Made by a program: the position numbers and the translations under genes | The notes under the pieces: model-generated | Databases searched by the model: none | What the model was told of the DNA's origin: nothing | Seen by the model: only the letters and a program-made list of their open reading frames with translations | Assembly (NCBI RefSeq): GCF_000002075.1 | Contig: NW_004798018.1 | Span: forward strand, 52,541-116,540 | Length of the DNA stretch: 64,000 nucleotides | Source of the DNA: Aplysia californica | Lineage: Eukaryota | Reading direction: 5' to 3' | Part shown: positions 12,201 through 34,800 of the stretch, piece after piece | Position numbering within the stretch: position 1 is the stretch's first letter | Layout of the letters: each line of letters opens with the position of its first letter

Positions 12201-12769
12201 ATGAAACGACAACAAATTCAACCTCTCCTCTCGAGCCACCAGAGGCAGGGTGTCCCACTTACACAGTATGATGGCACAATGTAACTTGGTGATTTATAAA
12301 ATATGATGCAAAAGTGAGCCCATTTTTTCGTTTCTGTTCCTTTGAATTAAAGCATATTTTTCTGAGCTTAACTAATTGATTGTGTTGTTGTCAACAGCTA
12401 ATCAAACAGCCAAAAAGGTCTCCACAAAAAGGATTTGGTGCAAATGCAAGTGTTTGAACAAAGAACCTCATGAGTATGAAAAAAACTGTAAGAAAAAATC
12501 AAGATCTTGTTGCATTTGCTAAAAAAAAAAGGGTTTTTTTTGCACTTAACATTTTGGCCTACTTGGTGCTATGTTGACAATGATAATGCTGAAAAAGGAA
12601 CCAAAAATAAATAGCTGTACAAAGGGGAAACAATTTCGCAGCATACCTCTGATACTTTTGTAAGTAATGAACAACCTTTCACTGCTGTCTATATATAAGA
12701 TTTTGAAATACTTTTTGGTGTTTAGACAAAGACTTAAGCAACACACTGCATACATCACAACCACACAGC

Positions 12770-12935
12770 TCAGGGCATCAGTCGCTCATACACCCAGCCT
12801 TCTTCTCCAGTGTGTGTGAAGTTCGGATCCACCTTTTCTCCTTCCTCTGGTTTCCTGAACACAATACGGTCGTGGAGTCTGTTTGTTTGGCCTTGCCAAA
12901 ATTCAAATCGATTTGGGACGACTCGAAATCCACCC
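12770..12935 (-). CDS. PNPO: PNPO last coding exon ([23 protein letters not shown]...ERLMP*)
   Basis: Acceptor tttttctggcgcag; stop TGA at 12770-12772; PNPO C-terminal signature. Confidence 0.95.
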
Positions 12936-15900
12936 CTGCGCCAGAAAAAAAGACAATACAATTACTTAGCGATGTACATATAAAAGTCATTATTACTAGA
13001 AAAAGTAATCACAGGAGGAAATATTTTTGGTTTAATCTATTCTGATTCAGTAAAACCAAACAGAAAAACACCTGTCTTTACCAATTCTACATTTTATCTA
13101 TTCACTAACATCTCATATAAAATCTAATGAGTCAAATGACAAATATTCAGTTAAAACAAATTACTGCACAAAAGCCAACCAAGTCAAAACTATGACAAAA
13201 GCGCAAGATGTCATCTTGGATAATTACCAAAATTTTACGGACCAATTCTTTTCAAGGCTAAGATGGATTACTACAATAACACTTAACAAACAATAACGAA
13301 TAAAATGAAATATCATTTACCAATAATCTGGTTTTGGAATTGGAATGTCGTTGCCCTCGTATTTGTCGAGAAGTTCTTGGTTCCTTTTATCTAGCTCCTG
13401 GAAAAGGAAAAATAAACTCATTACTAAAGAACAATATAATGTGTCAAAAATAGCTGTGCAAAGTGCAAGTTGGTTGACTTTCAGTTCTCTCTCGAAAAAT
13501 CAGAATTATAATAATAATAGTTTGCTTGTCAATGTCAGGCGATGACCAATGCATCTGCAAACGAGAATATTTTTTTAATGAAACACAATTAATATAGGTT
13601 AAGATGACTTGTGGCTTCTGCTATGGCCAATGAGACCAATGCTGGCTGAGAAGTGTTCACTACATTTTCAACATTCAAAAGTTTCAATTCCACTCATGGG
13701 TGGATGCACAATGCTTGGACTTCTCTCTTGGCTTCCGCATTTTTAATGCAAGGAAGATCAGAAAGTATGACTATAAGAATATACTTTATAAAAACTTGAT
13801 AAAAGAAGCAAGTCAAGTAATTCATAAGGTGAACAATATCACAGGAGCTGTAGTTGTTATTCACCCCAAACCAGCTGAACTTTCCCCCTTCTATTTGTAC
13901 AGTTCAACTCCAACCATTTTGACAAGAGATTTGCAAAAGACCATCAGAAGAAAACAGCAAGACAAATGGAGAGACTTCATCAGGAGGTGCTGTTTTAGTT
14001 TTAGTAGAAGTTTCACATCATTTGCAATACAAAGATAATATATAAGTGTGGAAGAATAGAGATGTAATAAAGAAAGAAGGAGGAAAGATAAGAATGATAG
14101 ATGTTTGATAGGATAAAAAGAGCAAACCACATCTGAGCATCCACCAACTAACCACACTGGGTATCGTTTCATCACAACAGACTACGTCTGCTGCACTAGT
14201 TTACACTTCCTGTATGATGACGGCACATGTGACTCATAAATTAGACCAATACACGCTACATAAGTTGGTTGGCTGCAGAGAGCACAAGGGGAAAAAAACT
14301 AAACCTTCTGCACTCTGTTAAGTCATCTTTTATCTTTACTTTACTTTTGTCCGCCGCTTATACCCTTTTGGTGTCTCGGGAAGAAAGAGATGTCTCTCTG
14401 TCGCCAGCCGGAGAGCTTGGGTCAGGGGGATGTCGTGAGTTGTTAATGTTTCCCTGACTCCATCTATCCAGGTCTATTTCAGTCGCCCTCTAGTCTTGTT
14501 GCCACTGAATTTTTTTATGTAAGCACGTTGTGCTGGGTGGTGTGTTGGTAATCGCATGAGATGTCCGAACCATTTATCATCTTTAATCATTTCAGAAATT
14601 GCATAAATGTCTTCGCTTCAGACTCCACTTCTTTCTCCTTTGGACTGATCTTACCGTCAGTTCCCAGAAACTTAAGTGAACTCTGAGCTACCTGATGGTG
14701 GGGAGAATTTATAAATAACTAGAGAAAAGTGAACAGAAACAGCGTGTGACCACACACGCCAGGTTAGCTTCTAAACCACCTGCCCCAAACAACAAATGTT
14801 ACACAATTCAAACTTCCAGTGATCACCTCTCGGTTCTTGATGAGAGTACTCTGTTGGCTGACAACTGCGCCCATCTGGCTAGTGCGTGGTCTGGAGTGGA
14901 AGTACTGGGTCGATTCTGCCTCCGACACTCGCTCCACTCTGCCTTCTATTCTTATCTAAGGACAGAGGAAGCAGTCTTAGAATTACAACACCAAAATGTT
15001 AAAAGAATATCATTTTACCAAATATTTTTGATATAACCTTATCTCTTTTATGCCTCATGAGGTACATGTACTTAAATGGCACATAAGAATGAACAGGCAG
15101 GCAGAAGGACTTATCATGAAACAGTGAGAGCTTCCGAGATTATACAACATGACAATAGATAAGCATTTAAATTTGAATTTGAACTTTTTTGAAACTCTTG
15201 AAAGTCAGGCATGAAAATTCATTATTTCAAATCCAAGTCCAGAACTTTCCATTGCATTTTGACCTTTATTCATCAGACACTCACGAACCCAGTTAAGGAC
15301 AGAAAGAAAATATAAAAAGCATTAGTAGCTTAATCAAGTTCTATCCACAAATTTAGGACCATTGGAGGTTAAAAAAGTACACAGTTTATGAAAACAGAAA
15401 CAAATACACTACATCTTATGTTGTGGTATAAGAAACAGCAACACTCACCAAGTGCAACAAATAGGTACACAGTACTTCCAAAAAGTAACTAAAACAAGAA
15501 ATACAATTTTGTATCTACTTTGCTATGGATCTATTTATGAGTCAGCAAATTTGGCTACGAAGAATGAGTAGATGTATAACAAAAGGTGAGGTTGCAACTA
15601 GATCTCACTCACTACCCTTCTTCTCATTTAAACACCATCCAATCAAAATATAAGGCTTATAATATCTATACCATAAAAATTAAGTATGAAATAGTCTTGC
15701 TGTCAACAAAAATACCAATATAATGCACTGCCCCCTCACAAATTAAATGATGCCCAAAACCATGGCTTCTTAAAATTACAAAAAGTCCTCTCGGTGACAA
15801 TGAGGTGATGGGAATGTAGCCTTCTGAGGTATCTGCTGTAAATGGAACATCTTGGCCATAAGCCTCCACAAAGACATGTATTGCTAGCATTTTTCTTCCC

Positions 15901-18900
15901 CAGATCACAAGCAAAGCAATAAAAAAAAAATGACAGCCTTACTCACCGATTTCATAAGCGCCTCCCAGTAAAACATTAAGCTACAATTTGGATTTTCAAC
16001 CTGATATGCCAAGGAGATAAAACAATAAGGAAAAGAGAAAAGTTAATGCCAAGTCATAAACAAGTAAAAATACTTAATATCTCCACTCGTCAAAGACCAC
16101 ACATAAATTATGAACAAAATGAATGGAAATCGGTGGTAAATAAAAGTGGGAAATTTCAGGCCAAATAATTTTACGATATAATTCATAAACCATTTTTGGT
16201 TCGCAATTTGTGTGTGATTTTTGCCAGGTTTTTTACACAAATGTGACTTTGGACATGAGCTGAGGAGAGTTATGTGCTTGTTGCTTGTCCTACCTTGCAC
16301 TAAAGTTCGGCCATTTTGAGGAAATAAAATTTGTGAATTTTTTTCTTATGATAAGTCCATTCCTAACTTCCACTATTCAACATTTGCTGCCTGTACACAG
16401 TGCTAGTCACTGAGCGCTCTTGTGTTTTCTCGCACACAGTGTAATGCAATGTTACATCACTGCTCATAATGCTTCGAATTTTAAATAGGGAAAGGGGAGC
16501 TCATTGCGACAGGTACTGTTAATTTCATGAAAAAACATTTGTTGTGCTTCGAGAGTCAATAAATGCTCTTGTTCGAGCAGTTAATGATGTGGCAGGTGAA
16601 TATTGAAAAGTAATGAATACTCTTTAGAACTTAGAGGCATCTTTTATAATTCTTGCAGGTTCCACTTATCAAAATATTTTTGTATTAACCTCGATGATTT
16701 TAGTTATAGTATGCTCTAATTATACTAGGGTTTGTGAGAAATGAGAGGGAAGTCCATTATCTGTTAAAAAAATATATTTAAAAAAAATAAATCTTAAACT
16801 CCCAATAAACAACCAATAAGTATTCGAATGGCTTTGCCATGCTTTGAATAGCTGTGAATAACGCAAAAATCATGGATGCTGAATAGTGAAATACAATTCA
16901 ATAGGCACAGCTCTACTTTGCACTGAGGGTCACAGTTCTACTTTGCACTGAGGGTGATGCTGTAACACATATGCAGAGATAACAGAGCACTGCACACAGG
17001 CTTACTTTTTCTATATTACTTTATTGAGTCACCTTAAAATTAATTTTATCCCACTCCCTTTGCTTTTAGTTCTAGTAACCCAGACCCACTCTACTGTTGT
17101 CTGTGGCATGTCTTTGAGCGAAGTTGGAGAAACTGAGAAACCAAAGTACTAGATTTACTAACTCATTTTTTCTTAACTACCCCAAAATTACTCTTTTTCA
17201 AAATGAGTAATCCAATCTTCCACAGTAAACCCCCTAGATATCGAAGTCATGTCCAGCCCTCCCTCACCACCAAACATCTCCTCTCCCACAACCCAACTCC
17301 CTAATCAGCATAGTTTTCAAGCATTCAATTTTTCCTTTTACTTTTCCAATTCAATGACAATCTATCCAAGAGAGATAAGCCCTTCAAACTGGTGTGCAAA
17401 GTCACATTTGCATAAATTTATAAAAAAGCATTCTGTGTCATCGTAGTAGACAAAAGAATAAGTTTGAAGTGTTGGAAGTTACGTATTTACCTGCCTGCTA
17501 ATGGTGGAGGTTTCAGAATTAGTCGACAGATAGAAAAGTAGAGAGGCAAATGGATTTTCCTCCTGTGATTGAGAAAATGGTACAAATATTAATGTACACA
17601 CGCGAAGAAACAAAATGAATTACTACTCGGATTCAAGCCATAAGGAAATAGGATACATCACGTTGTAAGTGAAGTTTTTACAGTTTATACATGAAATAAT
17701 AGAACATTGGTTATACTTAAAGAATATGGAATCAATAGAAAATCTACAAATTTGACCCAAATGTTGATTATTGGCCAATATCTCCATTTGTGGACTGCAA
17801 GAAGTAACTCATTTTGTCGGCACACCTTGCACATCTCTTCGCTTTTCACATATTTGTTCTTTTTTGCATCAGGTATGTTGTATAAAATATAGCACAGAGA
17901 AACAAACAGACACAACAGACGTGTGAAATACAAGTGAGAGAAAAATTAAACTAGGAGTAAGATTTCTTGAGCATAAAAGATAGTATAAATCACATCATAG
18001 CTTCTATCAATACTGCAATAAGAGACAATATCAGTTTCAGCATTCTTTACCATACAATCTAATCTAAAGGAGATCTCCTTTAAATAGACAGATAAAACTG
18101 TTCAAAGATTTGAAATAACTAGAGATTTTAGGACTTACAAGTTCTTGGGCTTTTCTGCTTCCATAGTTTGTGTAGAACACGATTCCCTTTTTGTCAATGC
18201 CCTTCATGAGAACCATTCGAACAGAAGGTTTTCCATCTCTGGAGAACAATAACAATGATGATAATAATGATAATTAATAACACTAGTAATAATAATATAC
18301 ACCGCATATCTCTATGCTAGAAAATCGGCTCCATGCACTTCATAATCTATACATATTATATGTGTGAAAGTTCTTCACTTTGGCCGCCTAAAACTTCCCA
18401 ACCACTGAACTTTCAAATTTTACAAAATTAACGGTGGTTCAGAATCATTTAAAGGGTGCACAGTTAAAATATGCAGTCTGAAGTCCCTGTAGTTTAATTT
18501 TCAGTTTTTCATTAGTTTTGTTTAGATCTAATCTTGGGAAAGTTCGTCTTCTTAGACGCCATTGTAAACAAGTGAGAGGTCCGTTCACAAACAGTGCATA
18601 CTGGTTCAACAATGACTTGGCGATCGATTCTTTTGAGTCCGTTCATCGCACGAGGTACCCAGCTCGTTTATTAATACCCAAACAAATCCTACAGCATTAC
18701 GAAATGTTTTGAACTTCTTTAAAAGAGACTATAATTTTATCTGTGCACTTAAGCACGGAACAAGCAGGCTAGGATGCATGTTTAGCATGGTAAAAATGAA
18801 AGTATGTGGGAGTAAACATGGTGGTCAATGAATTTTGATTCAACAAAAATAAAACTCTTTTTTAACTAGCCATCAAAATCAATTTGTTGTTTTAATTTGC

Positions 18901-21900
18901 AGGGGGGGGGGGGGGATAAAAGGGGAACAAATCTGTTTTATTTCTCCTTCAGTGAATAAAAGAACAAGAGATCATGAAATTTTAGTGATTTTTGAAAGTT
19001 ACTGTGACAACTTGTCCCATTTAGGAACAAACCAGTTTCATTAAAAAATATAAACCAATGTACAAAAGTTTTTAAAATGTGCAAAATTGAGGTAGCCAAC
19101 TCGGTACCGGTAATAATACTGAGGGAAATTTGCCATTTACAACAAGAAAAGAAGTTTCATTCAGATATCGAGATTCTAGATATAATGTTTCACATAACCG
19201 GCTGTCATGGCAAGTTGGAAAATAATAAACAATGAGAAACAAGAGTGATAAATTAATCCTTGAAAAGAAATCTAGGTTACAAATAGCTGGTATTGGGGGA
19301 ACAAATGTCAATAAACGTAATTACCAGTACTAGTGTCTTGAACTCTCTGGCTTATAATTATAGGCAGGTAGGAAGGCCCTCCTGTTCTGTATCCCCAAAT
19401 GACAGCACAATATATATTTATTCTATAAATTAGTCAAAATTATATGTCCAATCTACTGGCTATGTGGGTGAGTAACCTGGCTGCAGTCAGAGGAAAGCAT
19501 GAAGACCTTCCCCCAACTTGATCACCCAAGAAGCCATGAGAAATAATAATAATGATAGAAATAAAAATGATTAACTGCATTAGCATTCAAATTTGCCCAA
19601 TTTTAATTTCGACAAGATGCTCAGAGTAGATTACAATACAGTAGGTAAAGCAGACATAGGCACAATATAAAAAATCCTAAGAACAAAAAAAACCAAACGA
19701 AACAAAAAAAAACATTTACTTCAAAGACAACACAAAGTTCCACATACTTGTACATTGATAAAAATCCACTATTACAATTAACAGGAAAATAGACATAAAA
19801 ATGCAAATCAGTACATATGTAGAAACACAGTTAGACGTTAAACATGTTCATGGTTGACAACTCACAATAAGAGAAAGAATGAGTCTACTCGTTAAATAAA
19901 AGCAAATAAAAATGCTTTATGGTTGTGAAAAGAAAACCATCAAATTACGAAATGGATCAGTAGTCACCCTCGGGTTATGCAGTAAGTAAAAATATCATGA
20001 CCAGCATAAATATATAGCCAAGCAGTAGGAGAGCCTGAAAACCCCTCAAGTTCAAGATTATGCTCTGTACGGGATTCAGATCAGGGTTTTAAGCAGAGCA
20101 CAGCACTAGCGGAATGATGTCGAAATCCCCCGCTGGAAGAGCAAAGGGTAAGAATATAAGCAGAACAGCACAACTGGCAATAAACACTCACTTGGTGGCT
20201 GTGGCAATGGCCATTGCATTGGCTTCCATAATCCCATCTGTATTCTTGGCCTCCTCAAACCACGCTGTGAACTGTCCAAAAGGCTCCTTAGCCACAAGGT
20301 CGCCAACATCAAAGACTTCTTGTTTGCCTTTGTAAGGCTTCCTCATTCCTGCCAAATGAACAATTTAGACATTTCATGCTCAAAATCGATCATTATTTAT
20401 GTACCTTCAAACTGAGTACGTCAAAATGTAGACAAACAACATATCTGAAACAAAAATATTTTTAATAATTACCATCAAATCTTACCACCTACGTTGACAG
20501 CACATTGTCAAAGAGACAAGACATTAGCCAACAGGGGTCAAATTTTAGTGCTCATGTCCAGTCCTTTTTATAAGAGAAATATATTGATAGGCATGATGTG
20601 AACAATTAAAGTGCCATTTCAGTCCGATCAACTGATTTCAAGTCAACTAAATCTCTTTAAAATTGTCAAATGTGGAAGGCAAACTTAAAAAACTTTTCAT
20701 TAGCTATCAATAGGACCCATTAGAAGTTTATAAAAATTGTAAATTTCATCACCTTTCGTCAGCAACTTATAGAACCCATTAAGAGTTTTTAAAATACAGT
20801 CGAACCTGAGTAAGACGGAATCGCAGGGAAGCCAGAAAAAATTCCGTCTTAGAAAGGGAAATTTAGAGGAAGATGGAAATGGGTCAGCAGGTATTGGTCA
20901 ATCTAATTTCACACCTCTGGCTTCTGGCTACCCACGAAAGTTTCCGTAGTGGCTCGCTACTCAAGCACTCTCACGGGCAGTCGTGAGATTTCACACCCAC
21001 ACTACCCTGACAATCTACATCGCTCAGGGCTCACATGATGGGGTAACATCTACCCCCAAATTGCACCCCTACTCCCCTTCCTCGTCTAGCGGCATGGCCA
21101 TGACATTAAGTTTAGAGCCGGCGGAACCAAACTTAAAAGTTTTTCAAATCAGAGCTGAGCGGGCAAAGCATTTTCCATCTTAGACAGGTGAAACCCTCGG
21201 AAGGGAGCGGATTTTTCTTTCCGTTTTCGCTATGGACAGGTTTCTGTTTTATACAGGTAATTAAAGAGGAATATATCAAGGGGTGAGCGGGGAGATTCTG
21301 TTAAGACAGGTTTCTGTTTTATACAGGTTCGACTGTACTGTATATTTCAGGCGTGTGCAGGAGACACACCAAAATGGTGAGCAGGAAGAGAAAATATGTT
21401 GTATACAGAAAATGCTTAACTGCTCCTCGTTTAGTTTTAGTAGAGGTTTTACAGCACTCGAAACTGCATAAGGTCATATGAGCGTCAAAAGATAAGAGGT
21501 GTTACAAGAGAGTAACAAACATAAAAAAGAAGGAGGGAGATAAGGACGATATAAGTTTGATAGGAAAGGAGAAGCAAACCACACCAGAGCACCCGCCAAC
21601 CACCCACTAACTGCTCCTAACACTGCTAAGATATTGTTGAGATAGAGATAAGTTGGCCCTACTGCCTGCTTAGAAGTGTAGGTAAAGAAAATAAGTTTGA
21701 TTTCACTTTTATCAGATGGTGAAAAAGTGGAGGCATCTTAGTACCTGAGACATTCAGCAGCTTATCTGAACCATCTCCCTCTTGATTTCTTGAGCCACGT
21801 CCCACATTAGAAAACAGTGTCCTGGCTCGAAAGCTGGTGAACAAGTCTTTTCTATGTCTGCTACACACAAGACACAACCTAACAACACTTCGCATTGTTT

Positions 21901-24900
21901 ATTTTAGAAACTCTGCAATTAATCTCTCGTCTTTTTAACAAAGCATACCAGCTGTAGAAGAAACAAAAAAACATTGTCACACAATTAAAAGTCGTTATAT
22001 AGAAAAACATTTATTTTTCAAAAAAGAATCTTTTATCCCTGAGAGAGAGTCATAAAGTCTGTGTTTTTCGTTTCATCTTAGAAATGGTCTGGAATCGTTT
22101 AACGTCAGCACAAAGACGAATATATTTGGTGGGGGGCTGTGCAGAGTAATTTTGTCAAGGGAACTGTAACTGTTGTACGGAATCGGCAATCTAATTGTAT
22201 AAATATCGTTAAAAAGTGTGCGGCTCTGACAGTGCGCAGCTTTGATATTTTTTTTCTCAAAAGAGCGCAGCTCTGATAGTTTCCCGCAGCAAACAATATG
22301 CAGTTTGATCCCCAAAGCAGTGCATCTGTGTGCGGGAGTGAAAATAAAAATTTACCATAATAGGAAACAACGAGAAAACCATATCACCAGATGACTACCC
22401 TACTAGAGCACACATGTCAACCACCTACATATAGAGTAGCGGCGGGGTTGTGCGATAGGGGGGTCTGCGCGGCAACCTTGTAGTATGAACCAATTTAAAC
22501 ATGCTAGAGCGTTCCAGCATTTATCAACATCCGGCAGCACCTTTTCCTGTAGTACGAGATTATTGGCAGGTCACTGTGGTTGCTTATTGCACGTACACAG
22601 AGGCAAATTATTTCCAGGTTTGCTGATTACGTATTCTAACGGTGTATCGGCCTGCAGTTGTAAGGCTGTCAATGCATTTTATGAAGATGTGTATACTTGC
22701 ACTACACACAAAGCAGTGTGTTCTGCATGTAGCATCAGTACTAAGCAAAGCACGGACCCTCTCAGCCTCTCTGAGGGGATGGATGGGGGTTGGCGCGCAG
22801 TGCCGCCACGGCGTCTAGTAAGGCGGGGTTTCGCGTCTCAGACCTCTGCAGCGAGAACGGGGCAATATTATATTGCATCAAGGCCCACAACAGCCACCTG
22901 ACACAGCCTCTGTACCAGGCGTTTTTCGGGGCCATTATTAAGCCAGCGTGGCGAGAGGGGGTAAGGAAGTTTGTGAGGGACACCACGGAATCCGTCACAC
23001 TGAGGACGTTCGCCGGCGTCCTGAATTGAAGGCCTGGACAACAGTAGCTCGGCTAAAAACGGCCCTGAGGGGATTCCCCAAGTCAGGGCTGTTTTTCTAC
23101 AACCCTGACGTGTCCTCACAAGTGACAAGCTGAACCCAGCTGCACCTTAACAGGATCCCCTGCCCCTACCCTCCACTTGTCATCCACCTCGTCTGCCTCT
23201 GCCCCATCCGCCTCTTTTGCTTCTAAACCATCCACGACGTCACAAACTCGGCGTCACCGACTCAAGGAAATATTCTCCATGAACTTTAAGCTTGGGGAGG
23301 AGAAAGTTGACCTGTACCTCAAGAGGTATGACAATGGATATGACCTCAAGATCGACCCCAACTACAACATATGGTCCAGCCTGATGGACAATATTGAACA
23401 ACTGACTCCTCCGCTCCCTCAGCCATCAGCAAGAGCCCTGAAACCTCAGACCCCCACCGGGGAGATGACTATCGACAAGGTGCTCACATTTCCGTCCTGT
23501 TCAAAGAACAAGTCCGTTAGAAAGCCCCAGCCACCTGTGCCATTGTCCATCAGTGGAAATGACTAGAAAGAGATGATACTCACAAAGAAGAGGAAGGCGG
23601 AAGAAGAACAACAGCAGAAGGAAGAGAGAAAGAAGCCAAGGGAGCAGAGAAAGATGGAACGGCTAGCACAAGCTGAAGACAAGAAGGAAAGCCAAAAAGA
23701 GAAGAAAAAACGAAGGGAGCAGGCAAAGAAATAGGAGGAGAAGAAAAGGAAAATTCAAGAGAAGAAGATGAATGCTTTGGTTGTGGCCTCACAGAAGAAG
23801 AAAGAGGAGGAAGATTCCTCTGACTCAGGAGAAGAGCCGGTGTACGACGACAGCTCGGACGATTGTGGGGATATTACGGTCGACTGTGCTGGATGTGGAG
23901 CCACCACCGCAGGATAAGTAGTGCTCACCCAGTGCATGCTTTGTGACAAGTGGTGGCATGTCAACTGTGTCAAACAGATGGACCTGAGGACAAGACTCAG
24001 GAAGACCTGGATGCCATGGACATTGAGCTCTTTTGCTGTGCTAACTAATCTCTCCTTCCCATTTTGTTTCATACTAATAGTGTAAACAATATCTTTGTTT
24101 ATCCATGTGCAATTAGATCCACATGTCTCTACTTTGCTGTTCTTATATAATTTAAATCAAGTTTTCAGGGTTATCTAGACTCACTAATAGATTACTGTTT
24201 CCATTGTAAGTGTTGGCTTCAGTTATTTTTTGTTTTCTTTCTCTTGTGGCTATGCATAAAAACAGAGTGTCTTTTGTAACTCTTAACTCTTGTGCAATTT
24301 GTAAGAATATTTCCGGCGTTGTGGTTAGAAAATCATACGTTAGCCTATAAGATTCATAATAAGAAGTTATAAGGACATGTTGCAAGACCCGCCCTATCCT
24401 AGCGCGCAGCCCCTCCATAAAACGCGCCACCCTCAAGCAGGAACGCGCACCCCTGCTCATTGTCGCACACACCCGCCCTCACTTTGCCTCACAAAAAACC
24501 ACTACTAAGGGAGACAGGCAAACAAAGCAGGCATAGCGCGCTGGGCCAACGATAGCAGACGAAATTTGCTTCTCATCAGTTATTATGCAGTTACCTCCCC
24601 TTTCACCGGGGTCTAGCAAGGTCACTTTTTGTGCTTAGGGTAGCCCAGACTACCTCCTCTACTCTAGCTAGAGCACTGTTGAAATGTAAAGCACAGTAAC
24701 AGAATGAAAGCTATTGATATCAAGAATCTACACATTATGTTTCAAGGGGTGACAGGAATAGTACAGGTACTTTTTAAAATCACTGAGGGAAAAGTTCTAC
24801 ATACAACAAAATTAAAATAGAGGTCATACAAAACAAAAATGCCTGAAATGGTAAGATGTAAGCTTGAGTTTTAATTGTCAATTGAGTGTTCACAATCAAC

Positions 24901-25501
24901 AAGTAAGCCACTATAAACTCTTCTAAAAAGTTTGTCACTTATTAGTCCTTCCTTGCACAAGTTTTACTGAAATTAGATAAATGCACATGTTTAGTTATCC
25001 CGAGCTGAGGACGTGAGTGTAGATTTGGCTTTAGGAATTTTAGTGAAAGTCGGTTTGTTATACAACTTATCCTTTAAAAAGGCCGTCGTTATAAAAAAAA
25101 AAATCCTTGACGAACAATTTTTAACAAAAGTAAAATTTTAAGTAAGCATGCATTCTTTTCAAATTTCAGGGGAGTGTCCTTTTACACATAGCATTATCGG
25201 GCAGACACTGCGACTTAAACTTAAAGACTAGATCTAGATCTATTTCTGTGCTGGTATAATACATAACCCCTCTACTGATTTTACAAAGCAGAGCACACAA
25301 TACATAATAAACATGCCTTTGTGCATGGAGAAATTATACAACATGTCATGGCCATGGGCAAGGAAAGGCATTGGAGTCGGCTAGCGTATCTACAAAATTA
25401 CAGTACATATATTGATAATCTGTAAATTGAAGTAGATAAAGAATCTTTTTATTTAGTCTAAAACATCAGAGGGAATTACCGGCAATATCAAGATTTGCCA
25501 T
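12770..25501 (-). CDS. PNPO: Pyridoxine/pyridoxamine 5'-phosphate oxidase, spliced gene (about 234-283 aa depending on isoform)
   Basis: Coding exons in transcript order: 25480-25501 (alt first A) or 21745-21895 (alt first B); 20192-20348; 18139-18238; 17491-17562 (alt 4a) or 15947-16000 (alt 4b); 14827-14955; 13321-13397; 12770-12935. All are GT-AG and phase-compatible. Family motifs: [73 protein letters not shown]. Confidence 0.96.
13321..13397 (-). CDS. PNPO: PNPO exon ([26 protein letters not shown])
   Basis: cag acceptor and gtaaat donor; 77 nt; phase 0/2 fits neighbours. Confidence 0.93.
14323..14690 (-). mobile_element. Decayed RTE-type LINE 3' fragment in a PNPO intron
   Basis: Minus-strand translation gives LKFLG...[10 protein letters not shown]...RGR..TWIDG, followed by a (GTAAA/GATAAA)-like tail. 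Confidence 0.55.
14827..14955 (-). CDS. PNPO: PNPO exon ([36 protein letters not shown]...)
   Basis: tag acceptor and gtgatc donor; 129 nt; conserved YFHSRP and SQQS motifs. Confidence 0.95.
15947..16000 (-). CDS. PNPO: PNPO alternative exon 4b ([18 protein letters not shown])
   Basis: cag acceptor and gtgagt donor; 54 nt; phase 0/0; matches the family NPxxSLxFYWE motif. Confidence 0.9.
17491..17562 (-). CDS. PNPO: PNPO alternative exon 4a ([24 protein letters not shown]), paralog of exon 4b
   Basis: ttttctcaatcacag acceptor and CAG|gtaaat donor; 72 nt; phase 0/0; open frame; NPFASLLFY...RQ matches the same PNPO segment as 15947-16000. Confidence 0.8.
18139..18238 (-). CDS. PNPO: PNPO exon ([33 protein letters not shown])
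   Basis: ctccag acceptor and gtaagt donor; 100 nt; FMN-binding motifs. Confidence 0.96.
20192..20348 (-). CDS. PNPO: PNPO exon ([35 protein letters not shown]...[12 protein letters not shown])
   Basis: ggcag acceptor and gtgagt donor; 157 nt; phase 1/2. Confidence 0.94.
20797..21335. mobile_element. Tc1/mariner (Tigger-like) MITE
   Basis: TA-CAGTCGAACCTG ... CAGGTTCGACTG-TA. Confidence 0.8.
21428..21607 (-). repeat. ~180-bp short retroposon family, copy with perfect 11-bp TSD taactgctcct
   Basis: TSD at 21417-21427 and 21608-21618. Confidence 0.85.
21745..21895 (-). CDS. PNPO: PNPO alternative first coding exon B, mitochondrial presequence-like ([29 protein letters not shown]...LLNVSG)
   Basis: ATG in acaATG context; CAG|gtacta phase-1 donor in frame with the next exon; upstream acceptor ttcttctacag at 21952; Arg/Ser/Leu-rich N-terminus. 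Confidence 0.7.
22434..24484 (+). mobile_element. Decayed pogo/Tigger-like DNA transposon (DDE_1 C-terminal part, K/E/R coil, PHD finger) in a PNPO intron
   Basis: [28 protein letters not shown]...KPAW and [13 protein letters not shown] are DDE_1-like. CAGC...[12 protein letters not shown] is PHD-like. Frameshifts and stops present. Imperfect TIRs gtagcggcggggttgtgcga / tcgcacacacccgccctcac. Confidence 0.75.
25480..25501 (-). CDS. PNPO: PNPO alternative first coding exon A (MANLDIAG)
   Basis: attATGG start; CCG|gtaatt phase-1 donor; acceptor ttttatcaacag at 25556. The joined LDIAGMRKPY resembles the family D-x-A-x-x-R-x-x-Y N-terminal motif. Confidence 0.75.
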
Positions 25502-25849
25502 AATAATGTTGTCCAAAGATTGTCAGTCCACAAGCCACAAACTGGTTTTGCACAGCTGTTGATAAAAATAAAGGTCAGAGGCTACGATTATAAAAACCAG
25601 ATTTTTCTAGAAATAACAACAAGTGAATACAAAAAAATAAGCAATTCACGGGCTTAGTAACTCATTTCCAGGAGTTTCTCTGACTTCTAATGATTTATGA
25701 GGTATGTAATTAGTTTGCAATATTATTTCTTATAGAAGTAGATCTACGTGTTAAATAACCAATTTTTTTACACTCGGATAGCACGCTACAGAAAATGCTT
25801 ATACAGTTTGCCTCAATCTGGGATACTAGGCTAACCCGGATGTTTTTGT

Positions 25850-26390
25850 TGAGTCGACCAGCATGCTTGAAAGCTAGGCACCGCCCACCTGACCATGTGC
25901 GTAAGGCTGACTTATCTCATTAGTTTCAGAAACCAGAAGTGACAAAAATACAGAATTCTTTCGACAAGTTATTTCGCTTGTGAGTTACAGTAAATGTGTT
26001 CTCTCTGCATCCTACGTCTTGATATATTACTTAATAGGAGTGTATCTCTTCATGGGTCTGCCACCAATTTTCTGGCTTTTAGACAAGATGGGAAATTTCC
26101 TTTCGTATCTGTTTACATTTCGCGGGTCAGGGTCGCAAATCAAGTGAGTTGTAAAGCACATCCGCTACCTTCCATAAGATTGTCTTTAGGTAACTTTCGT
26201 TAATTTCGATAAATAAAGTATTTATGTGTCATTTTTATCTTTTCTCGCTACAACTGAAGAAATAATATCCTTCTTTTCTTCGTTTATGTTAACCGACCCC
26301 AGTGCTCAGGGAACCTGTTTAACGCTACGCCCACGGATTTGGCGGGAATGATGGCGTTCTCTTGGGTCTGAGGTTTGGCAAGCAGACGTA
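25850..26390. promoter_or_regulatory. Probable bidirectional promoter for PNPO (minus) and CDCA7 (plus)
   Basis: Locally CpG-rich. E2F-like sites TTTCGCGG at 26118-26125 and TTTGGCGGGAA at 26338-26348. CCAAT at 26064. Plus-strand donors gtgagt at 26144 and gtatgt at 26388. Minus-strand donor CAG|gtgggc near 25888. Confidence 0.6.
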
Positions 26391-27756
26391 TGTTTTTCCC
26401 ATATGATCATCTTGGCATTTTTTTCCCTCGATGTGTCTGGGTGTCTTTCCACGTTACAATGATTAAAGAATTGAATCAGACATTTGAAGCAGCCGGAAAT
26501 TGATGTAGATCTAGGCCAAGTTTTTAGTGAATTTCGTTGTTTCTCTTTTCAAGGAAATTTGGTGGACCATGCCGATCAGCATCCATTATCCATCACCTCA
26601 CTGATCACACTCACACACATGATGACCGATAACATTAACGGAATGTCGATTGTTAGTTGTTATTTTTTTATGAATACAATTCATTGGATTGTGCAGCGGT
26701 ATTATATCAAAGTCTGCCTCCACAGTCTATGCTTTTGTTGTCTTGGTTTCGGTATTTATTTCTTTTTCTTTCATGTCTTATTGGTTCCTTCTAGACTTGG
26801 CCATCTCTAGAATCTAGCCTAGCACAGACTAGACAGTCACCACAGTCCTACATTGACATCATTATTATTATTGTATAGATCAATATTGGCAACCTTCTGT
26901 TGCATGTCCACCGATCCATACAATTTCTGCTTGAGGGATATAATGTTTGAATGTTTTGACGAGGATTGGCCGGACCTTCCTTTCACTCTGTTATTTATAG
27001 ACTCTGTGGTGTGGTCAAACTACATGATAGCCAAGAGTTAGCTAGATGATAGATCTAGATCTAAATCTAGACTCAAATGTTAGAAACGACTGTTAAGATT
27101 AAGAGTTATGTTTACTCAGAATTAGATTAAAAATTTAGAATAGAATGTTATTGCATGCTGACTGGCATTGTGGTGTTTCAGTGATTGTGCCCTTTCACTT
27201 TCCTGAGATGAAAACAACTCGGTCTCGGTAAATTTTTACTTTCACTCCCACACACAGATGCACTGCTTCGGGGGTCAAACTTCAGTATTGTTTGCTACAG
27301 ATCACACATAACATAAAAAGCCACTAAAACTGTCGCAAATCAGTAATTTTCCAGAAAGTTTCAAACCTCACTGCATAATATCAAATTATGGGTTTAAACA
27401 GCCCCCTGATTGGTCCAAAGGGCGCAAATTACTAATAATACTACACAGTTAGGCTTAGGGCTTAGTGTGATTTAGCTCTATTAAAAACCATCAGATATTT
27501 CCAAAGTTATTAATTTGCTACGGTGATACAGTTATTTGTGTTCAGCGCACCAATATATAGAAGATGGACAAGTAGACTGGAGAGAAAGTAAAGAATACCC
27601 CAAATTGTTTTTGCCAGAAGCCCCAATTTTAAGGTCTCTGCTTGCTGGCTTTACTTCTGCTTCGTGGCAGTGGAGGCCTTATGAAGGCTATGCAACTGTC
27701 TGCTTTTGTCTTTTGAATACGGGATGCAGACTACTAGTCCTTCATTCTTGGCTGTT

Positions 27757-28599
27757 CAGTCGAACCTGTGTAAAACAGCCACCCATTGTCATGGAGAAAA
27801 GTGGCTGTATAACACAGATGGCCGTCTTATGCAGGACTGATCAAAATGAAGGAAGTAAGCCATTCCCTTCTGAAGTCCTAACCAGGGCTGATTCAGGCTT
27901 AGGGCTGCCGTACGGCGGATTCGAATGGGGATTTTTTTTCTTTTGAAAAAAAGGGGGCGGTGGAGGAAGGGGTTTTTCTGTTTGTTTTTGGTTTTTTGTG
28001 GGGGGTTTTTAATTTTTTTTTTTAGCTTTTTGGTTGCTGATGTTGTGCAAGGATAGAATAAAGAATGTAAGACAATGAAGACCGAGTGTCATGGTAAAAC
28101 ACACTCACGGGTTGCCACCACTCGAAGAACGAGCAACGCTTCGGTCGCAAGTTCACGTTAACGTCCATTGTTACTTTGTAACAGATTGGGTAAACAAAAC
28201 AGTGACCAGTCACTTCACGTACAATATGTATGAGTTGTGGGAGGGGCTTAGTTTATGACAGACGCTCGCTTCTCTCACCAGCAGTTGAAAATGTATTGTT
28301 ACCCATTGGTCACCTTGGGCTTGGGTGAAACATTCATTGGAGGGACTAACAATAATGACAGGTGAATGAATTATGGCGACCTGTCCACAATATCAGAGGC
28401 CAATTTAGAATTTATGACAGAGCATTGGGCGATTATAGAGACCATGTCTGGCCGCCTGAGGCAGGTAAATTTGGCTCTGGGTTGATAAAATAAGGTGGCC
28501 GCAGTCGTGTTTGACAGGTGACAGTTTTACAGTTAAATTATGTCGAAAAAACGCAGGGGGGGGGGGGATCGAAAGTGGCCGTCATAGCAGGTTCGACTG
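27757..28599. mobile_element. Tc1/mariner (Tigger-like) MITE in the CDCA7 5' intron
   Basis: CAGTCGAACCTG ... CAGGTTCGACTG-TA; same TIR family as 20797-21335. Confidence 0.75.
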
Positions 28600-28851
28600 T
28601 ATATATTTGTACTTTTGTCATGGATCCATACATGACTTGTCCAAGCTACCCATAGACTATAGAGGCCTTCAACTCTACAGCTTCGCTTTCTTTCCTGCTC
28701 CAATTTTTTTTTACCAAAGACGAAGTTGCTCAAACTCATCACAAGGAAACTAAAGTTCCATCTAATGATTTCCTGGTTTCCTTTTTTTTCCAGACCACTG
28801 TCCTTTTTGAGTTTTAAAATCAGTGTACAGTGACATCTTCACACATTAGGA

Positions 28852-28869
28852 ATGGAGGACACTGGAATG
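28852..28869 (+). CDS. CDCA7: CDCA7 first coding exon (MEDTGM)
   Basis: Acceptor ttttttttccag at 28793; ggaATGG start; ATG|gtaact donor, phase 0. Confidence 0.7.
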
Positions 28870-31800
28870 GTAACTATCACTGATTTCATTGTTAAAAGTG
28901 TCTGTTTTTTCTTATCCTTGTTTAATTTCAGTTAATGAGTTTGAGGGGCAGAGTAGGAAAATGTTTCTTTTTGTTGCTTCCAATAGGGAAGGGGAAAGCC
29001 AAGTGTTGCATTGCAATAGCAAAATTAAGTANNNNNNNNNNNNNNNNNNNNNNNNNNNNNNNNNNNNNNNNNNNNNNNNNNNNNNNNNNNNNNNNNNNNN
29101 NNNNNNNNNNNNNNNNNNNNNNNNNNNNNNNNNNNNNNNNNNNNNNNNNNNNNNNNNNNNNNNNNNNNNNNCTTCCTCTCCCTCTTTCTAATTTCTTAGC
29201 TGGCGACCTTTTGCTTCTTACAAGAATTTCCTGATGTTTATGTATGAAAGCTTTTACGTCATGTGATGCTGTAACTATCTAGAGGTGTTGTCATGCCCTG
29301 TTTGTTCACTGAACTTTTCATTTCAATATTCATGTCTCTTTTACCAGGACGATGTTTGCCACTATGAAAATCTCAGGAAAAGAAATCTGGAGGACAATAA
29401 AGCCGTGGTAATATTATCCTCTTCTTGTATTTTATGAAAAGCTTAGTCAGCACCTTTTTCTTTCTTGAACTATGTGCTGGGGCATTATGTTTTTGTCCAC
29501 CTGTGGTCCTTTTCAGAGATCATGATTGGAGTGAGTTTATGACTGCTATAGTGTAAAGCTGCAAATACTATATATTCAGACAGAGACGTTTCTTTTCATA
29601 CGTTGGCAATACCAGCTGGGTGGTAAGGGGGACTGATGATTTTTTTTTTTGGGGGGGGGGTGTATTAGTGAGGTTTAACTGTACTGATTTTTTGTGAAAC
29701 AATTTAAAACTTTAAATGTGATTCATGAGAAGAAAGTAAGGGTTTTTTTTAATTGGTCCTGCTTCCCCCCCCCCCCCCTTATTTTGTACGTACATGTATT
29801 CATGTGTACTGCTTAGCTTATTTCTGTACTAAACGTGTCCACTTGTGCTGTTTTACAGTTGGCGAAACTTATGTGTGACATCAAAGATCAGATTGTCAAA
29901 AAACCGACCACAGTCCAGAAGGTGAGGAAAACTATTTGGTGAACAACTTTTCACTTAAGTAATTCTTAATATACATTACCTTGTTTGTAAGTAGTAATAG
30001 CCTTGTTATATTCACCTTAAGAATTAAGTTCATTGGTGACAAAGGTCCTTTGTCGTCTAATACTTGTCCATCTTATGGTCTGATTTGTAGGGCATGAGTC
30101 TATACAATGCTTACTCACAGCTGGGTCTTAAAGTTGCAGACTCATAACCATATTTCTCCTTAACAATGGGTGGCTGTCGTGGACAGTTTTTTTACCCTTA
30201 TTAGAACCATTGCTGCCATTCGCGGCCTTATGGGTGTATTCTCATTTTAAGTAGTTGAACAGTGCATTTAGTTAGGTTTTTCATATGTCCAGTACCTCTT
30301 CTTATTATTCTTAATCGTTGCTGCTTTGTTTCTATCATTTGCTAACTGAAAGGAATTGTTATTTGGGTTTTTTATTTTTTAAATTGTGTTTGCAGAGAAA
30401 GAGAATTTCAGCAGCTGATGCTGAAGATCAGTTCATCAGGAGAAACCCCTCCCGCCGTGCTCGTGTAACCCCATCTCGGTTTGATCTTCCTCGCACTCGG
30501 TCCAGAGCCAGGAGCGGGTCTATCTCATCAACAGTGTCTTCGGCTTCCTCTTCCTCTACAACACCCTCATCATCCCCTGAGGTAGGCCAGGAATTGATAA
30601 CTAGATTATTTTTTTTTCATTTTGTCCTGTGTGTGTGTGTATGGAATGGCAGGTTGTGAGGTTCAGTTGGCGGGTCTTTTAGCAATTGTAGCTAAATAAG
30701 GGTTCTATCCATTGCCCTCATCCTGACTTAAACAATTAGATTAACATTTGAAAGGGGGGTAAATGATCCTTTAAATTTTAAATTCAATCTGCTGTGCACT
30801 CAGATTAGCTAGTCAGTTTCTAGGAACATCCCCACCACCATTTCAAATTGAAGAGGGAAATTGTTAAAGATGATGAAAATATTTCTTCAAGCAGCTGGAA
30901 CTTTGTGGCTCTGACTTTTTGAAGAGTGATGATTAAAATGATATGACGCTCTGCCTTGGCTATTGAAACGGTTGCCACTGAAACAAAATCAGAAATGACA
31001 CCTTGGTTTGTGTTGTTCTTCAATTTGTCTTCTGTCTTATTTCAGAAACTTGTCGTCCGGTTTGGGTTTTTCAAGAGGTTAAATACAGAATCATCAGGAC
31101 TTCCTATGGATGAGGTAGGTCAATATGTTTGTCTCATTCACATTTGTTGGCAGTTGTTGTTGTAATTGCTTTGTTGTTTAGTTTCTCATACTTTTCATAC
31201 CCTTCTTCAAACCCTTTTTTTTCTGCTTCTCTTTGTGGCCAATGACTGTTCATATGGAAACTCATGAGATTTCAAGGAAAGTTGGTGTTGTTCCTGGTCC
31301 ATGAAACTCCCTCACCCTCTGCTAGAGTCGTCCAAACAAAATTACCATTCAATATTCTCTATGGGATGCATCATGGTGAAATGAGGCACTCATCAAAATA
31401 ATGAAATCCAAGAAATCTGCATTTTTTCGACCAGTTTGGACTTTTGTTTCTTTTTCTTTTTTTCTTCAAATTTTTGTTTTTCGGCTCAACACCTTGTATG
31501 TCCTTTCAAAAAACACTTTTATATGTGGATTTTATGGAAAAACGTTGGTTAAAGGCACACCAAAATTTAATTTGCAGTTTCCAAGGACTCTAGTTATACT
31601 AAGTCACCAAACTTTGGCGGCTACTTTCTCGCTAATTTTACCTCTTAAACCAGGCGACCCCTCCTCCTTCAATTGCAAATATCTCGACTTCTATTCAAGA
31701 TAAATGGGTATTGTTTTCATCTAAAATAAGGCAAATGAACAACCTTTAAGATTAAGAAGATACCAGTAACTCCATGCCCAAAAATTGACAAGCACCTGAT

Positions 31801-34800
31801 TCCCCTGCGTCATGACACACATATGATCTCTCAGTCCAGGGGTCCCACACTTTAGAATTATGTTCAAGGGGATGCTGCTGGTAGGTCATACTTCTTTACC
31901 TTTTTTTTTTTTAAATCTCTTTTCAGCTTCTGTCTTTTGCCTATGAATTAAATGACTGTTGCTCTGTCAGTGTGGTGTTCTAAAGCAACACACATCTAGA
32001 AAATGTTTTGAAAGTGAAAATTTCAGTTTGAACTTTAAAATATTTGGAAGTGGATGCTTTTTGGATGCTTTCCTATCAATCACCTATCATCCTTATTCTT
32101 CCTCTATGACACATTGTACCGTAAAACGCTTACTAAAACAAAAACATACATTAGGAGAGAAATGACTCATCATTTTCTGGAAAAGGGTAGGGAATTCCGA
32201 ATAAGTTATTTGACAGCAGTCTCCTATTGTTTACTTTTTCTTGAGTATGTGTAGAACAGAAGAACGTTTAACCAGATATGCACTGGCACAATCAGTGGAA
32301 AGACCCCCTGCGACATTTTGGAGAAAGCAACAGAGCCTCAATGGACATGTCCGGAGTGCAGAGATGTTGCTTCCTGAAACAATGAACAATGATTGAGTAT
32401 GTTACAGTATGTACTTATCATGTGTGCTCTATCTACTATCTGAGCTACGCTGTATTGTGTTTCAAATCTTGTTCCTGTAATGTGATTTTTTAAAATATTT
32501 TTTTTATTTTCACGTGTTTTCTGTGACAGAGTTCTGATGAGGAGGACGCCGAGGACTGTCCCCTGCCGCAGATCACACGGAAACCCCGCACTGTTCGAGA
32601 GGCGAGACCGGTGGAAGACATCACTCAGGCTGACCTGGATATGGTGGCCGTGTCAGTGTCGGACAAAAAATATGACAGTATTTATGTAAGGAGCAGTTTT
32701 TCATCGGATGATGCAGTTTCTCCCATAATACCCTTTTATACATTCTAGTATGCACATAACAAAATTGGCGGGACGTGGAAATCTTTTCTTAATGTACATG
32801 TTTCTAATACAAAGAATATAATATTCATGTATTTATAAGAAAAAATTTGGGACCTGAAAATCTGTTCGCAGTGTGCTTGGTAGACTATAATGATAACCTA
32901 CCAAAAAATTTACAAGTAAGGATACATGATCTCGGTCCGGACAGGATATGCTTTGTAATTCATTCACATAAAGAGGTTTTAGTATTCTTTATTCTGTCTT
33001 TGTTAACAGTTGTGGCATAACGTTTCTTTGTCTTAAAGATCCTTTCATGTTTTGCCTGACAGTGGTTGGAGCCTGTCACTGAAAATGTCACTTTTCTGCT
33101 ACTTCTGTTGTGTCACTCAAGCCAAATGGTCAGATTTTGTTCCTTATTACTTTTAAGTTGGATGTTGTAGGTTGTTATTTGGAATGCAAGAATTACAGTA
33201 GGATTTTCTCATGTCTTCTCTGGTTTCGTTGTCTTGAAAAAATATCTATACAGTAATTTTGTTCTGTCACAGGGCTCTACCTGCCACCAGTGTAGACAAA
33301 AGACGAACGACATGAAAACAATTTGCCGTTCAGAGGACTGCACAGGCGTCAGGGGTCAGGTGAGTGGGACTGGAAAAAAAATATCATATACAGCTACAAC
33401 AGTCACTTGTTGCCATCTGTTGTCATATATCTCTGAGTGTGAAAATGTGGGTGGTTTGCGGGTGCTCTGATGTGGTTTGCTCCTTCTTTCCTATGAAACA
33501 TCTGTCTTCCTTATCTCTCCTCTTTTGTAGGTGGTTGGCAGGTGCTCTGGTGTGGTTTGCTCCTTCTTTCCTATCAAACATCTATCGTCCTTATTTCTCC
33601 TCCTTTTTTGTGTATGTTACTTTCTTGTAATACATAATCTATTCTTCGGCACTTATGTGACCTTATTGTGTTGCAAGTGCCCTAAAACTCTTACTCAAAA
33701 CAAAAAAACCCAAAAAAAACTCCACTCCTTTATTATGTTTGTTACTGTCTTGTAACACCTCTTATTGTATTGCAAGAGTCATAATAACTAAAACAAAAAG
33801 GAATAAGGAAATGCTGCTTTTCGGCAGTTTCAGAAGCCATAGGGAACTTCTTTTTTTGTGTGTGTTTTTAGAATGACAGATCATGTCCTACTTTGCAGTG
33901 GATTCTATGTTGGATTGCTTTGTAATTCACTGCACAATGACGATCAGATTATTTCACCAGCTATATAGTCAGTCATAGACAATAGGCACACTCAAAATTG
34001 GAAATTACGGGTAGCTCGTACAATACACCATTCCTCAACAGAACCGCTGTATTTTCTTTGTATTGACAACATTGTTTTCATGAACAATCGCGCAGATTTG
34101 TCTACATATTGTCTCAAACTTGACAAACCCAATCAATTTTTTCTTCACAATTATATCTCAAATTTAAATGATCTACCTTTGTACAATGGAAAATGTCTCA
34201 CCCGTGGTCATTAAGAGTATCAGGTGACATGAGTCCACTAGCCTCGCCCCCAGAGTGGTACACATTTTGCCTGAATCGAGTGTTTGCCCACAAGAAAAAT
34301 TTAGGGAATTTCTAAATCGAATGAGCAAGTCAGTAATGCTTCTTTTCCTTGGAACTCTAACGAAATGCTAGGTCACAGAAAGGAAGGATGATGATAAATG
34401 TATCATAAAGTTGTTTTGTTGGTTTCTTTTGGTGTGGGAAATAATTTTGGCTTTAATTTTAATGATTAATCTGGCATGTTTCGTGAAAGTAATAATGTGC
34501 TTTGGGGGGTGGGGGTTATTATTTTGGAGGGAGAACTTTGAAACTTATATGAGTGTTTGGCCAAATCTATTTACAGTTTTGTGGACCATGTCTCAAAAAC
34601 CGGTACGGAGAGGATGCCAAAGCAGCTCTGATGTCTCCCGTAAGTGTATGCTGATGTTTAGACTGTTGTTTCCTTTATGAGTGTTTTTAGTTGTATGAAA
34701 TCATTATTGCTCTCCCTTGTTTATCTGACGGTACAGGAAAAGAGTAATTAAATAATCTTCATTTCAGTGTCAGTTGTCCTTTAGTCAATACATGTTTTCA

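What the first reader, a model, noticed from the sequence alone, without database searches (positions are those of the whole stretch)
21745..25555. Alternative first coding exons give cytosolic versus mitochondrial-type PNPO
Seen: two ATG-bearing exons each end in a phase-1 donor that joins in frame to GMRKPY. Exon A (25480-25555) encodes MANLDIAG. Exon B (21745-21951) encodes a 51-aa leader, [51 protein letters not shown], which is Arg/Ser/Leu-rich with one acidic residue in the first 38 positions. Both end in similar residues (LDIAG and LNVSG). Splicing A into B hits a stop (GCT GGT ATG CTT TGT TAA), so the two are alternatives. Inference: exon B is a mitochondrial presequence, allowing PLP synthesis inside mitochondria, whereas vertebrate PNPO is generally treated as cytosolic. 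Combined with exons 4a/4b this gives up to four isoforms (234, 240, 277 and 283 aa). Coupling of compartment with active-site variant would be a compact regulatory system.
Basis: partly seen in the sequence, partly recalled or inferred. Interest (0 to 1): 0.7.

Follow-up and report, generated by a model that had tools for sequence, protein, structure and literature searches.

The report
Cassette exon adds PNPO mitochondrial leader
In the sea hare Aplysia, the vitamin B6-activating enzyme PNPO has an optional second exon that cuts the normal start short and supplies a new start with a likely mitochondrial address tag; this is a splicing version of a two-compartment arrangement already reported for human PNPO.

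Summary
The sequences are real, but the layout was misread. The gene is Aplysia californica PNPO, and its four proteins (234, 240, 277, 283 aa) are already RefSeq isoforms X1-X4. Exons A and B are not alternative first exons. Contigs from 2 of 4 runs splice A into B and B into the next exon; 3 of 4 runs splice A straight to the next exon. B is therefore a cassette exon. Including it turns A's start into a 12-codon upstream ORF and leaves B's own ATG, 39 nt further on, to start a 51-residue basic leader, likely a mitochondrial presequence (not tested with a predictor or GFP). Zebrafish hars has this layout, and human KARS1 uses a similar exon-2 switch. Mitochondrial PNPO is not new: human PNPO residues 1-31 are reported as a targeting signal (PMC12718117). 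Outside this snail group, 89 of 91 long PNPO leaders keep a second Met. What appears unreported is that heterobranch snails seem to have moved the choice from start-codon selection to splicing. No coupling to exons 4a/4b was found. Modest interest.

The parts
25480..25572 (-). Exon A, likely the first exon. ATG at 25501 in strong context (A at -3, G at +4); 7 codons plus one base; start of the short, likely cytosolic form. 5' end not mapped.
   Evidence: Contigs cover 25479/25480 up to 25557, 25568 and 25572 in X1, X14, X2; context; in-frame stop upstream of the ATG
21745..21951 (-). Exon B, 207-nt cassette exon with AG acceptor and phase-1 GT donor
   Evidence: Joint 21951/25480 (ends CT..AC on the + strand, i.e. 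GT..AG) and loose end at 21744 equal to the start of the next exon, in X14 and X16; single match in the genome
21935..21951 (-). End of the 12-codon upstream ORF made when A is spliced to B (contains a second ATG at 21946 and the TAA stop)
21745..21895 (-). 51-codon leader from ATG 21895 (A at -3), 39 nt after the uORF stop; predicted mitochondrial presequence; no internal in-frame Met; three out-of-frame ATGs (21807, 21774, 21753)
   Evidence: Net +6 in first 30 aa, moment 8.3; local alignment to P0188 and P0004 beats all but 0-7 of 2000 shuffles
20192..20348 (-). Shared exon 2 (starts the MRKPY segment)
18139..18238 (-). Shared exon 3
17491..17562 (-). Alternative exon 4a (72 nt)
   Evidence: reproduces RefSeq X1 and X3
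15947..16000 (-). Alternative exon 4b (54 nt)
   Evidence: reproduces RefSeq X2 and X4
14827..14955 (-). Shared exon 5
13321..13397 (-). Shared exon 6
12770..12935 (-). Coding part of the last exon (stop ends at 12770; 3' UTR follows)

Best explanation
Exon B is a cassette exon spliced between exon A and the shared body of PNPO; skipping it gives the short, likely cytosolic enzyme from A's ATG, while including it stops A's frame after 12 codons, so that ribosomes would start again at B's ATG and make a precursor with a predicted mitochondrial presequence. Shown: both splice paths, the uORF, the open 51-codon leader and the four protein sequences. Inferred: one shared promoter; reinitiation or leaky scanning to ATG 21895; import and cleavage (an R-x-L-F-S motif at residues 25-29 is a candidate site); a role in recycling PMP/PNP to PLP inside mitochondria. 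B has no internal in-frame Met, so each mRNA would make essentially one form and splicing would set the ratio. The layout likely arose in heterobranch snails from the ancestral single leader with two in-frame Mets, probably by tandem duplication of the first coding exon.
For:: A-to-B joint in X14 and X16 (2 of 4 runs, two studies); B-to-exon-2 in the same two; A-to-exon-2 in X1, X2, X14; no cover just upstream of B in 4 of 4. Biomphalaria RefSeq X1 (P0081) is the A peptide followed by the B peptide and X2 (P0079) is A alone, which implies the same exon order (gene models, not rechecked here). Both short and long N-termini also occur for Arion (P0013, P0191) and in one unnamed JGI cluster (P0187, P0188); the B start is conserved in 2 of 17 leaders tested (P0188, P0004); 11 of 13 distinct long heterobranch-like leaders have net charge of +2 or more in the first 20 aa; human PNPO 1-31 is used as an MTS construct and truncation removes the targeting signal; human Met32 aligns just before the shared MRKxY segment, where A's peptide sits; zebrafish hars has the same layout, with localisation shown. 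B and the gene are single-copy.
Against: No TargetP/MitoFates run and no localisation test. The charge and moment test is crude, and 3 of 116 chance ORFs pass it. 15 of 17 leaders show no significant sequence similarity to B (usual for presequences, but not support). A's ATG is in strong context and the gap to B's ATG is only 39 nt, so output from B may be low; the uORF stop lies 190 nt before the next junction, which could invite nonsense-mediated decay. The runs are contigs whose RNA nature is a guess (the GT-AG joints argue for RNA); contigs cannot show starts or levels, so a minor separate promoter for B is not excluded. The shared exon ending (p 0.006 for B against an outgroup profile) is expected from selection on the protein alone and does not prove duplication.
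Confidence: 0.75

Rival explanations
1. B is mainly a poison exon: inclusion lowers PNPO output through the uORF or nonsense-mediated decay, and the long protein is rarely made.
For: Strong context at A's ATG; stop 190 nt before the next junction; a second ATG inside the uORF.
Against: B keeps a 51-codon open frame in phase with the enzyme; its start is conserved in P0188 and P0004; long basic leaders persist across relatives; the Biomphalaria model has no stop at the A-B join; inclusion is the only path shown in X16.
Confidence: 0.1
2. True alternative first exons with separate promoters, with A-B splicing as a side product.
For: Both exons have their own ATG and phase-1 donor; contigs drop rare variants and cannot show starts.
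Against: In both runs that hold B its 5' end is joined to A at a canonical acceptor; no run covers 22038-22211; the pyrimidine tract before B ties for the strongest of the 9 AG sites scored.
Confidence: 0.07
3. The long form is made but the leader does not import it into the matrix (cytosolic, intermembrane-space or other destination).
For: No predictor or experiment here; residues 39-45 are acidic and Gly-rich; a 2023 paper assumes no PNPO in mitochondria.
Against: Basic, acid-poor first 38 residues with an amphipathic moment; human leader reported as MTS; 79 of 91 outgroup long leaders are net basic.
Confidence: 0.08

Closest known systems
Zebrafish hars exon-2 switch (PMC5608375, passages read)
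   Same: Exon 1 start is followed by a stop in included exon 2; a second start in exon 2 gives the mitochondrial form; skipping gives the cytoplasmic form.
   Different: A tRNA synthetase, with localisation tested in cells; here a B6 salvage enzyme with localisation untested.
Human KARS1 exon-2 splicing (PMC4394549 and PMC5889485, passages read; Tolkunova 2000 seen only as a reference entry)
   Same: One gene; skipping exon 2 gives the cytoplasmic enzyme from the exon 1 start; the mitochondrial precursor comes from exon 2 splicing.
   Different: Different enzyme. That the exon 1 frame stops within exon 2 in KARS1 is recalled, not read here.
Human PNPO dual start (PMC12718117; abstract, PNPO passages, sections 9 and 10 read)
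   Same: Same enzyme family; long form carries an N-terminal MTS, short form lacks it; short start lies just before the MRKxY segment.
   Different: In human both starts are in frame on one mRNA with the MTS start first. In Aplysia the short-form start is upstream, the two frames are separated by a stop, and splicing chooses.
RefSeq models XP_005109137-40 (Aplysia PNPO X1-X4)
   Same: Identical protein sequences.
   Different: The protein entries seen carry no statement on exon order, uORF or compartment; the mRNA models were not seen.

Membership tests
[quoted passage not shown] | PNPOx_N plus PNP_phzG_C domains above Pfam cut-offs | tested here: met
   PF01243 at 93-99 bits, PF10590 at 70 bits in 3 of 3 isoforms scanned
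[quoted passage not shown] | TIGR00558 pdxH equivalog above cut-off and PhzG below cut-off | tested here: met
   239-250 bits vs 180 in 4 of 4; PhzG 152-158 vs 270
[quoted passage not shown] | Oxidase activity on PNP/PMP | not testable with these tools
   Inferred from alignment to human 1NRG, E 2.4e-76
KARS1/hars-type cassette-exon dual targeting | Exon 1 start joins the body in frame when exon 2 is skipped | tested here: met
KARS1/hars-type cassette-exon dual targeting | Exon 2 is spliced behind exon 1 and stops the exon 1 frame | tested here: met
   Joint in X14 and X16; 12-codon uORF
KARS1/hars-type cassette-exon dual targeting | Exon 2 carries its own in-frame ATG and a presequence-like leader | tested here: met
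   ATG 21895, 51 aa, net +6; 3 of 116 chance ORFs as extreme; crude test only
KARS1/hars-type cassette-exon dual targeting | Long form is imported into mitochondria, short form is cytosolic | not testable with these tools
   No predictor or imaging available; analogy to human PNPO
Alternative first exons (separate promoters) | Each exon begins a transcript and is not spliced to the other | tested here: not met
   A is spliced into B in 2 of 4 runs; no cover upstream of B
Leaky-scanning dual start (human PNPO type) | Two in-frame Mets on one leader, MTS start first | tested here: not met
   Aplysia B leader has no second Met; A's frame stops before B's ATG
Repeat-derived exon | Multiple genomic copies or raised DNA depth | tested here: not met
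   One match in G000 (the search skips very common words); DNA contig 21585-22328 at depth 65.8 vs 51-72 for the other 7 long pieces listed

The most novel reading that the evidence does not exclude
Heterobranch snails duplicated the first coding exon of PNPO and turned an ancient fixed-ratio dual start into a regulated splice switch, so that a tissue or life stage can turn mitochondrial vitamin B6 recycling on or off. The run-to-run pattern (skip only in X1 and X2, inclusion only in X16, both in X14) would be the trace of this regulation, and Aplysia neurons would offer a natural test of what mitochondrial PNPO is for.
Probability: 0.3. Interest if true: 0.55.

Novelty: new variant of a known kind. 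Interest (0 to 1): 0.3.

Why it matters
Whether mitochondria make or recycle their own PLP is unsettled: a 2023 paper assumes PNPO is absent from mitochondria, while a 2025 screen finds a targeting signal on human PNPO. A second Met in 89 of 91 long animal leaders, and the apparent rebuilding of the same two-form outcome by splicing in snails, suggest that both forms are kept by selection. In Aplysia the two forms come from separable mRNAs, so the long form can be measured by RT-PCR and knocked down alone. The mechanism itself is known, and the proteins are already annotated.

Tried and rejected
Raw reads of 2026 (X22-X24) and DNA-like X9 on 11400-28600: exon depth about 1 or below, tables dominated by repeats, no PNPO joint among the rows shown (141 more not shown); uninformative on splicing. 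The run search listed no holder on record as RNA; no conclusion drawn. Absence of B cover in X1 and X2 and absence of cover at 25692-26561 are not taken as proof of silence. An upstream non-coding exon using the AG at 25557-25556 was considered: no joint was listed and two contigs run through it, but it is not excluded; trans-splicing at that AG likewise unsupported. A third first-type exon between A and exon 2: a scan of G-GT[AG] donors with the tail profile found only B. A paralogue taking the mitochondrial role: all 6 matches in G000 lie in this gene. Pfam has no match to the B leader. DNA likeness between the ends of A and B is too short to test. The script stopped with an error after 9 of 17 conservation rows; the other 8 were run, and its first exon edges for 4a, 5 and 7 were off by one and were corrected there. 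Literature: 'Aplysia' plus 'PNPO' gave 2 listings, one neuropeptide study in two versions (listing only); none of the 15 listed of 10,241 mentions PNPO; one search listed 3 of 5, none on this gene by title. Earlier scan findings: none. No structure or complex prediction was run, as it would not bear on the question.
Full report
Identity. Exon 2 searched as protein matched three Aplysia californica PNPO isoforms at 100%, and the cluster look-up gave the fourth: XP_005109137-40, X1-X4, 283/277/240/234 aa. Joining window exons in a script reproduced all four exactly. All four pass the pdxH equivalog cut-off and fail PhzG. The 6 genomic matches to the protein all lie in this gene.

Observation. 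The ATGs, donors, leader sequence, single acidic residue in the first 38 positions and the in-frame stop after an A-B join are all present. A first exon would not need one.

RNA evidence. I laid 4 of the 18 holder runs listed on 21690-26900; they come from four studies, are contigs, and are only guessed to be RNA. One joint was listed: 21951/25480, with GT-AG ends, in X14 and X16. Loose ends at 21744 (X14, X16) and 25479 (X1, X2, X14) equal the start of exon 2 (checked). So A-B-2 occurs in 2 of 4 runs and A-2 in 3 of 4. The raw 2026 reads gave almost no exon cover and no usable joint.

Consequence of inclusion. In A-B-2 the strong A start reads 12 codons and stops inside B. B's ATG (21895, A at -3) follows 39 nt later in the same frame, behind a second in-frame stop, and opens the 277/283-aa products. 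The B leader has no internal in-frame Met and holds three out-of-frame ATGs, so leakage to the Met in exon 2 should be small. I infer that A-2 makes the short form, A-B-2 makes the long form by reinitiation or leaky scanning, and splicing sets the ratio. Short start-proximal uORFs commonly allow reinitiation and escape from decay (recalled, not checked). The stop is 190 nt before the next junction, so a poison-exon role is a real rival.

Is the leader a presequence? No predictor was available. The first 30 residues have net charge +6 with six Arg, and the best 18-residue moment is 8.3. Among 116 ATG-started ORFs of 50 codons or more in the window, 7 reach the charge, 2 the Arg count and 3 both charge and moment. 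An R-x-L-F-S motif sits at 25-29; a loose version of this motif was found in 5 of 11 heterobranch-like leaders scanned, the Aplysia one included, which is weak support. B is single-copy. Its first 30 residues align better than shuffles to 2 of 17 leaders, both unnamed JGI proteins among the closest hits (P0188: 0 and 1 of 2000; P0004: 7 and 2 of 2000); the other 15 show nothing.

Relatives. Of the 193 proteins stored (best hits plus cluster members; one search listed 120 of 4031), I kept distinct Met-started leaders of 20-100 aa before the MRxxY motif, dropping shorter, longer, duplicate, unmatched and non-Met rows. Among 91 outside my hand-picked heterobranch-like set, 89 carry a second Met within 20 residues of the motif and 79 are net basic in the first 20. 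This is the human pattern: Met32 aligns there, and PMC12718117 reports dual localisation from the native 5' UTR-ORF-GFP, uses PNPO 1-31 as an MTS construct and lists PNPO among truncations that lose a targeting signal (passages, abstract and sections 9-10 read; figures and supplements not seen, and its supplementary tables may hold more on PNPO). Among 13 heterobranch-like long leaders, 4 lack the second Met (Aplysia, P0008, Plakobranchus, Elysia). Separate short N-termini exist beside long ones in Biomphalaria, Arion and one unnamed cluster. The Biomphalaria RefSeq X1 model reads the A peptide in frame into the B peptide, while other models of that species start just before the B peptide; I could not check these against DNA. 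Both exon ends fit the outgroup tail profile (A below 0.001, B 0.006). This suits a tandem duplication but is equally expected from selection on the protein.

Coupling to 4a/4b. The X16 contig carrying A-B and the X2 contig carrying A-2 both continue for 257 letters past the junction, which equals the rest of exon 2, exon 3 and the one base shared by 4a and 4b. I infer that both end at the 4a/4b fork, so both exon-4 forms are present whichever upstream path is shown; the letters were not printed. B-type proteins with either exon-4 form also occur in two unnamed clusters (P0004/P0077, P0008/P0190). Nothing supports coupling; long reads would decide.

Comparison with known systems. Zebrafish hars has the same layout, with the exon 1 start stopped in included exon 2 and localisation shown (PMC5608375, passages). 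Human KARS1 makes its two forms by exon 2 splicing (PMC4394549, PMC5889485, passages). I found no paper on the Aplysia or snail gene in searches, which cover only the held open library.

Verdict. A real feature, with the layout corrected from alternative first exons to a cassette exon with a uORF-type start switch. The outcome (two compartments) is known for PNPO, and the mechanism is known from other genes. The lineage-specific move from dual start to splicing appears unreported. Interest 0.3; new variant of a known kind.

Noticed in passing
window 17491-17562 and 15947-16000 (-): The 4a/4b pair has look-alikes in crustacean PNPOs (for example P0015/P0016) as well as snails, and some database proteins carry both exons in frame (P0005, P0017, P0045, P0088), so the pair looks ancient and not strictly exclusive. 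This may be more interesting than the 5' switch.
   Followed up: partly
window 17491-17562 (-): Aplysia exon 4a has Leu where the family has a Trp after the FY motif; the other 4a-type proteins looked at keep Trp (P0007, P0011, P0077, P0190). It may affect activity of the 240/283-aa forms.
   Followed up: no
window about 26500-36550 (+): A divergently oriented neighbour with zf-4CXXC_R1 exons at 33171-33467 and 36341-36544 (CDCA7-like, name recalled). It may share a promoter region with PNPO; its 5' end was not mapped.
   Followed up: partly
window 25573-25560 (-): The longest contig on exon A begins at 25572 within a C followed by a T-rich run, resembling a pyrimidine-rich (TCT/5'TOP-like) start; motif name recalled, start not mapped.
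   Followed up: no
window 21489-21608, 22300-24600, 13696-14843, 17714-19435: Intronic repeats with very high depth in the DNA-like run; the one at 21489-21608 is heavily represented in poly(A) reads from other loci.
   Followed up: no
P0122, P0137: Arion and Physella have second, divergent PNPO-like proteins with a 4a-type segment, suggesting gene duplication in some pulmonates, whereas Aplysia shows one locus.
   Followed up: no
P0014-P0033: Decapod PNPO leaders often have three in-frame Mets (about 41-46, 23-26 and 7 residues before the MRKPY motif), hinting at a third N-terminal form.
   Followed up: no
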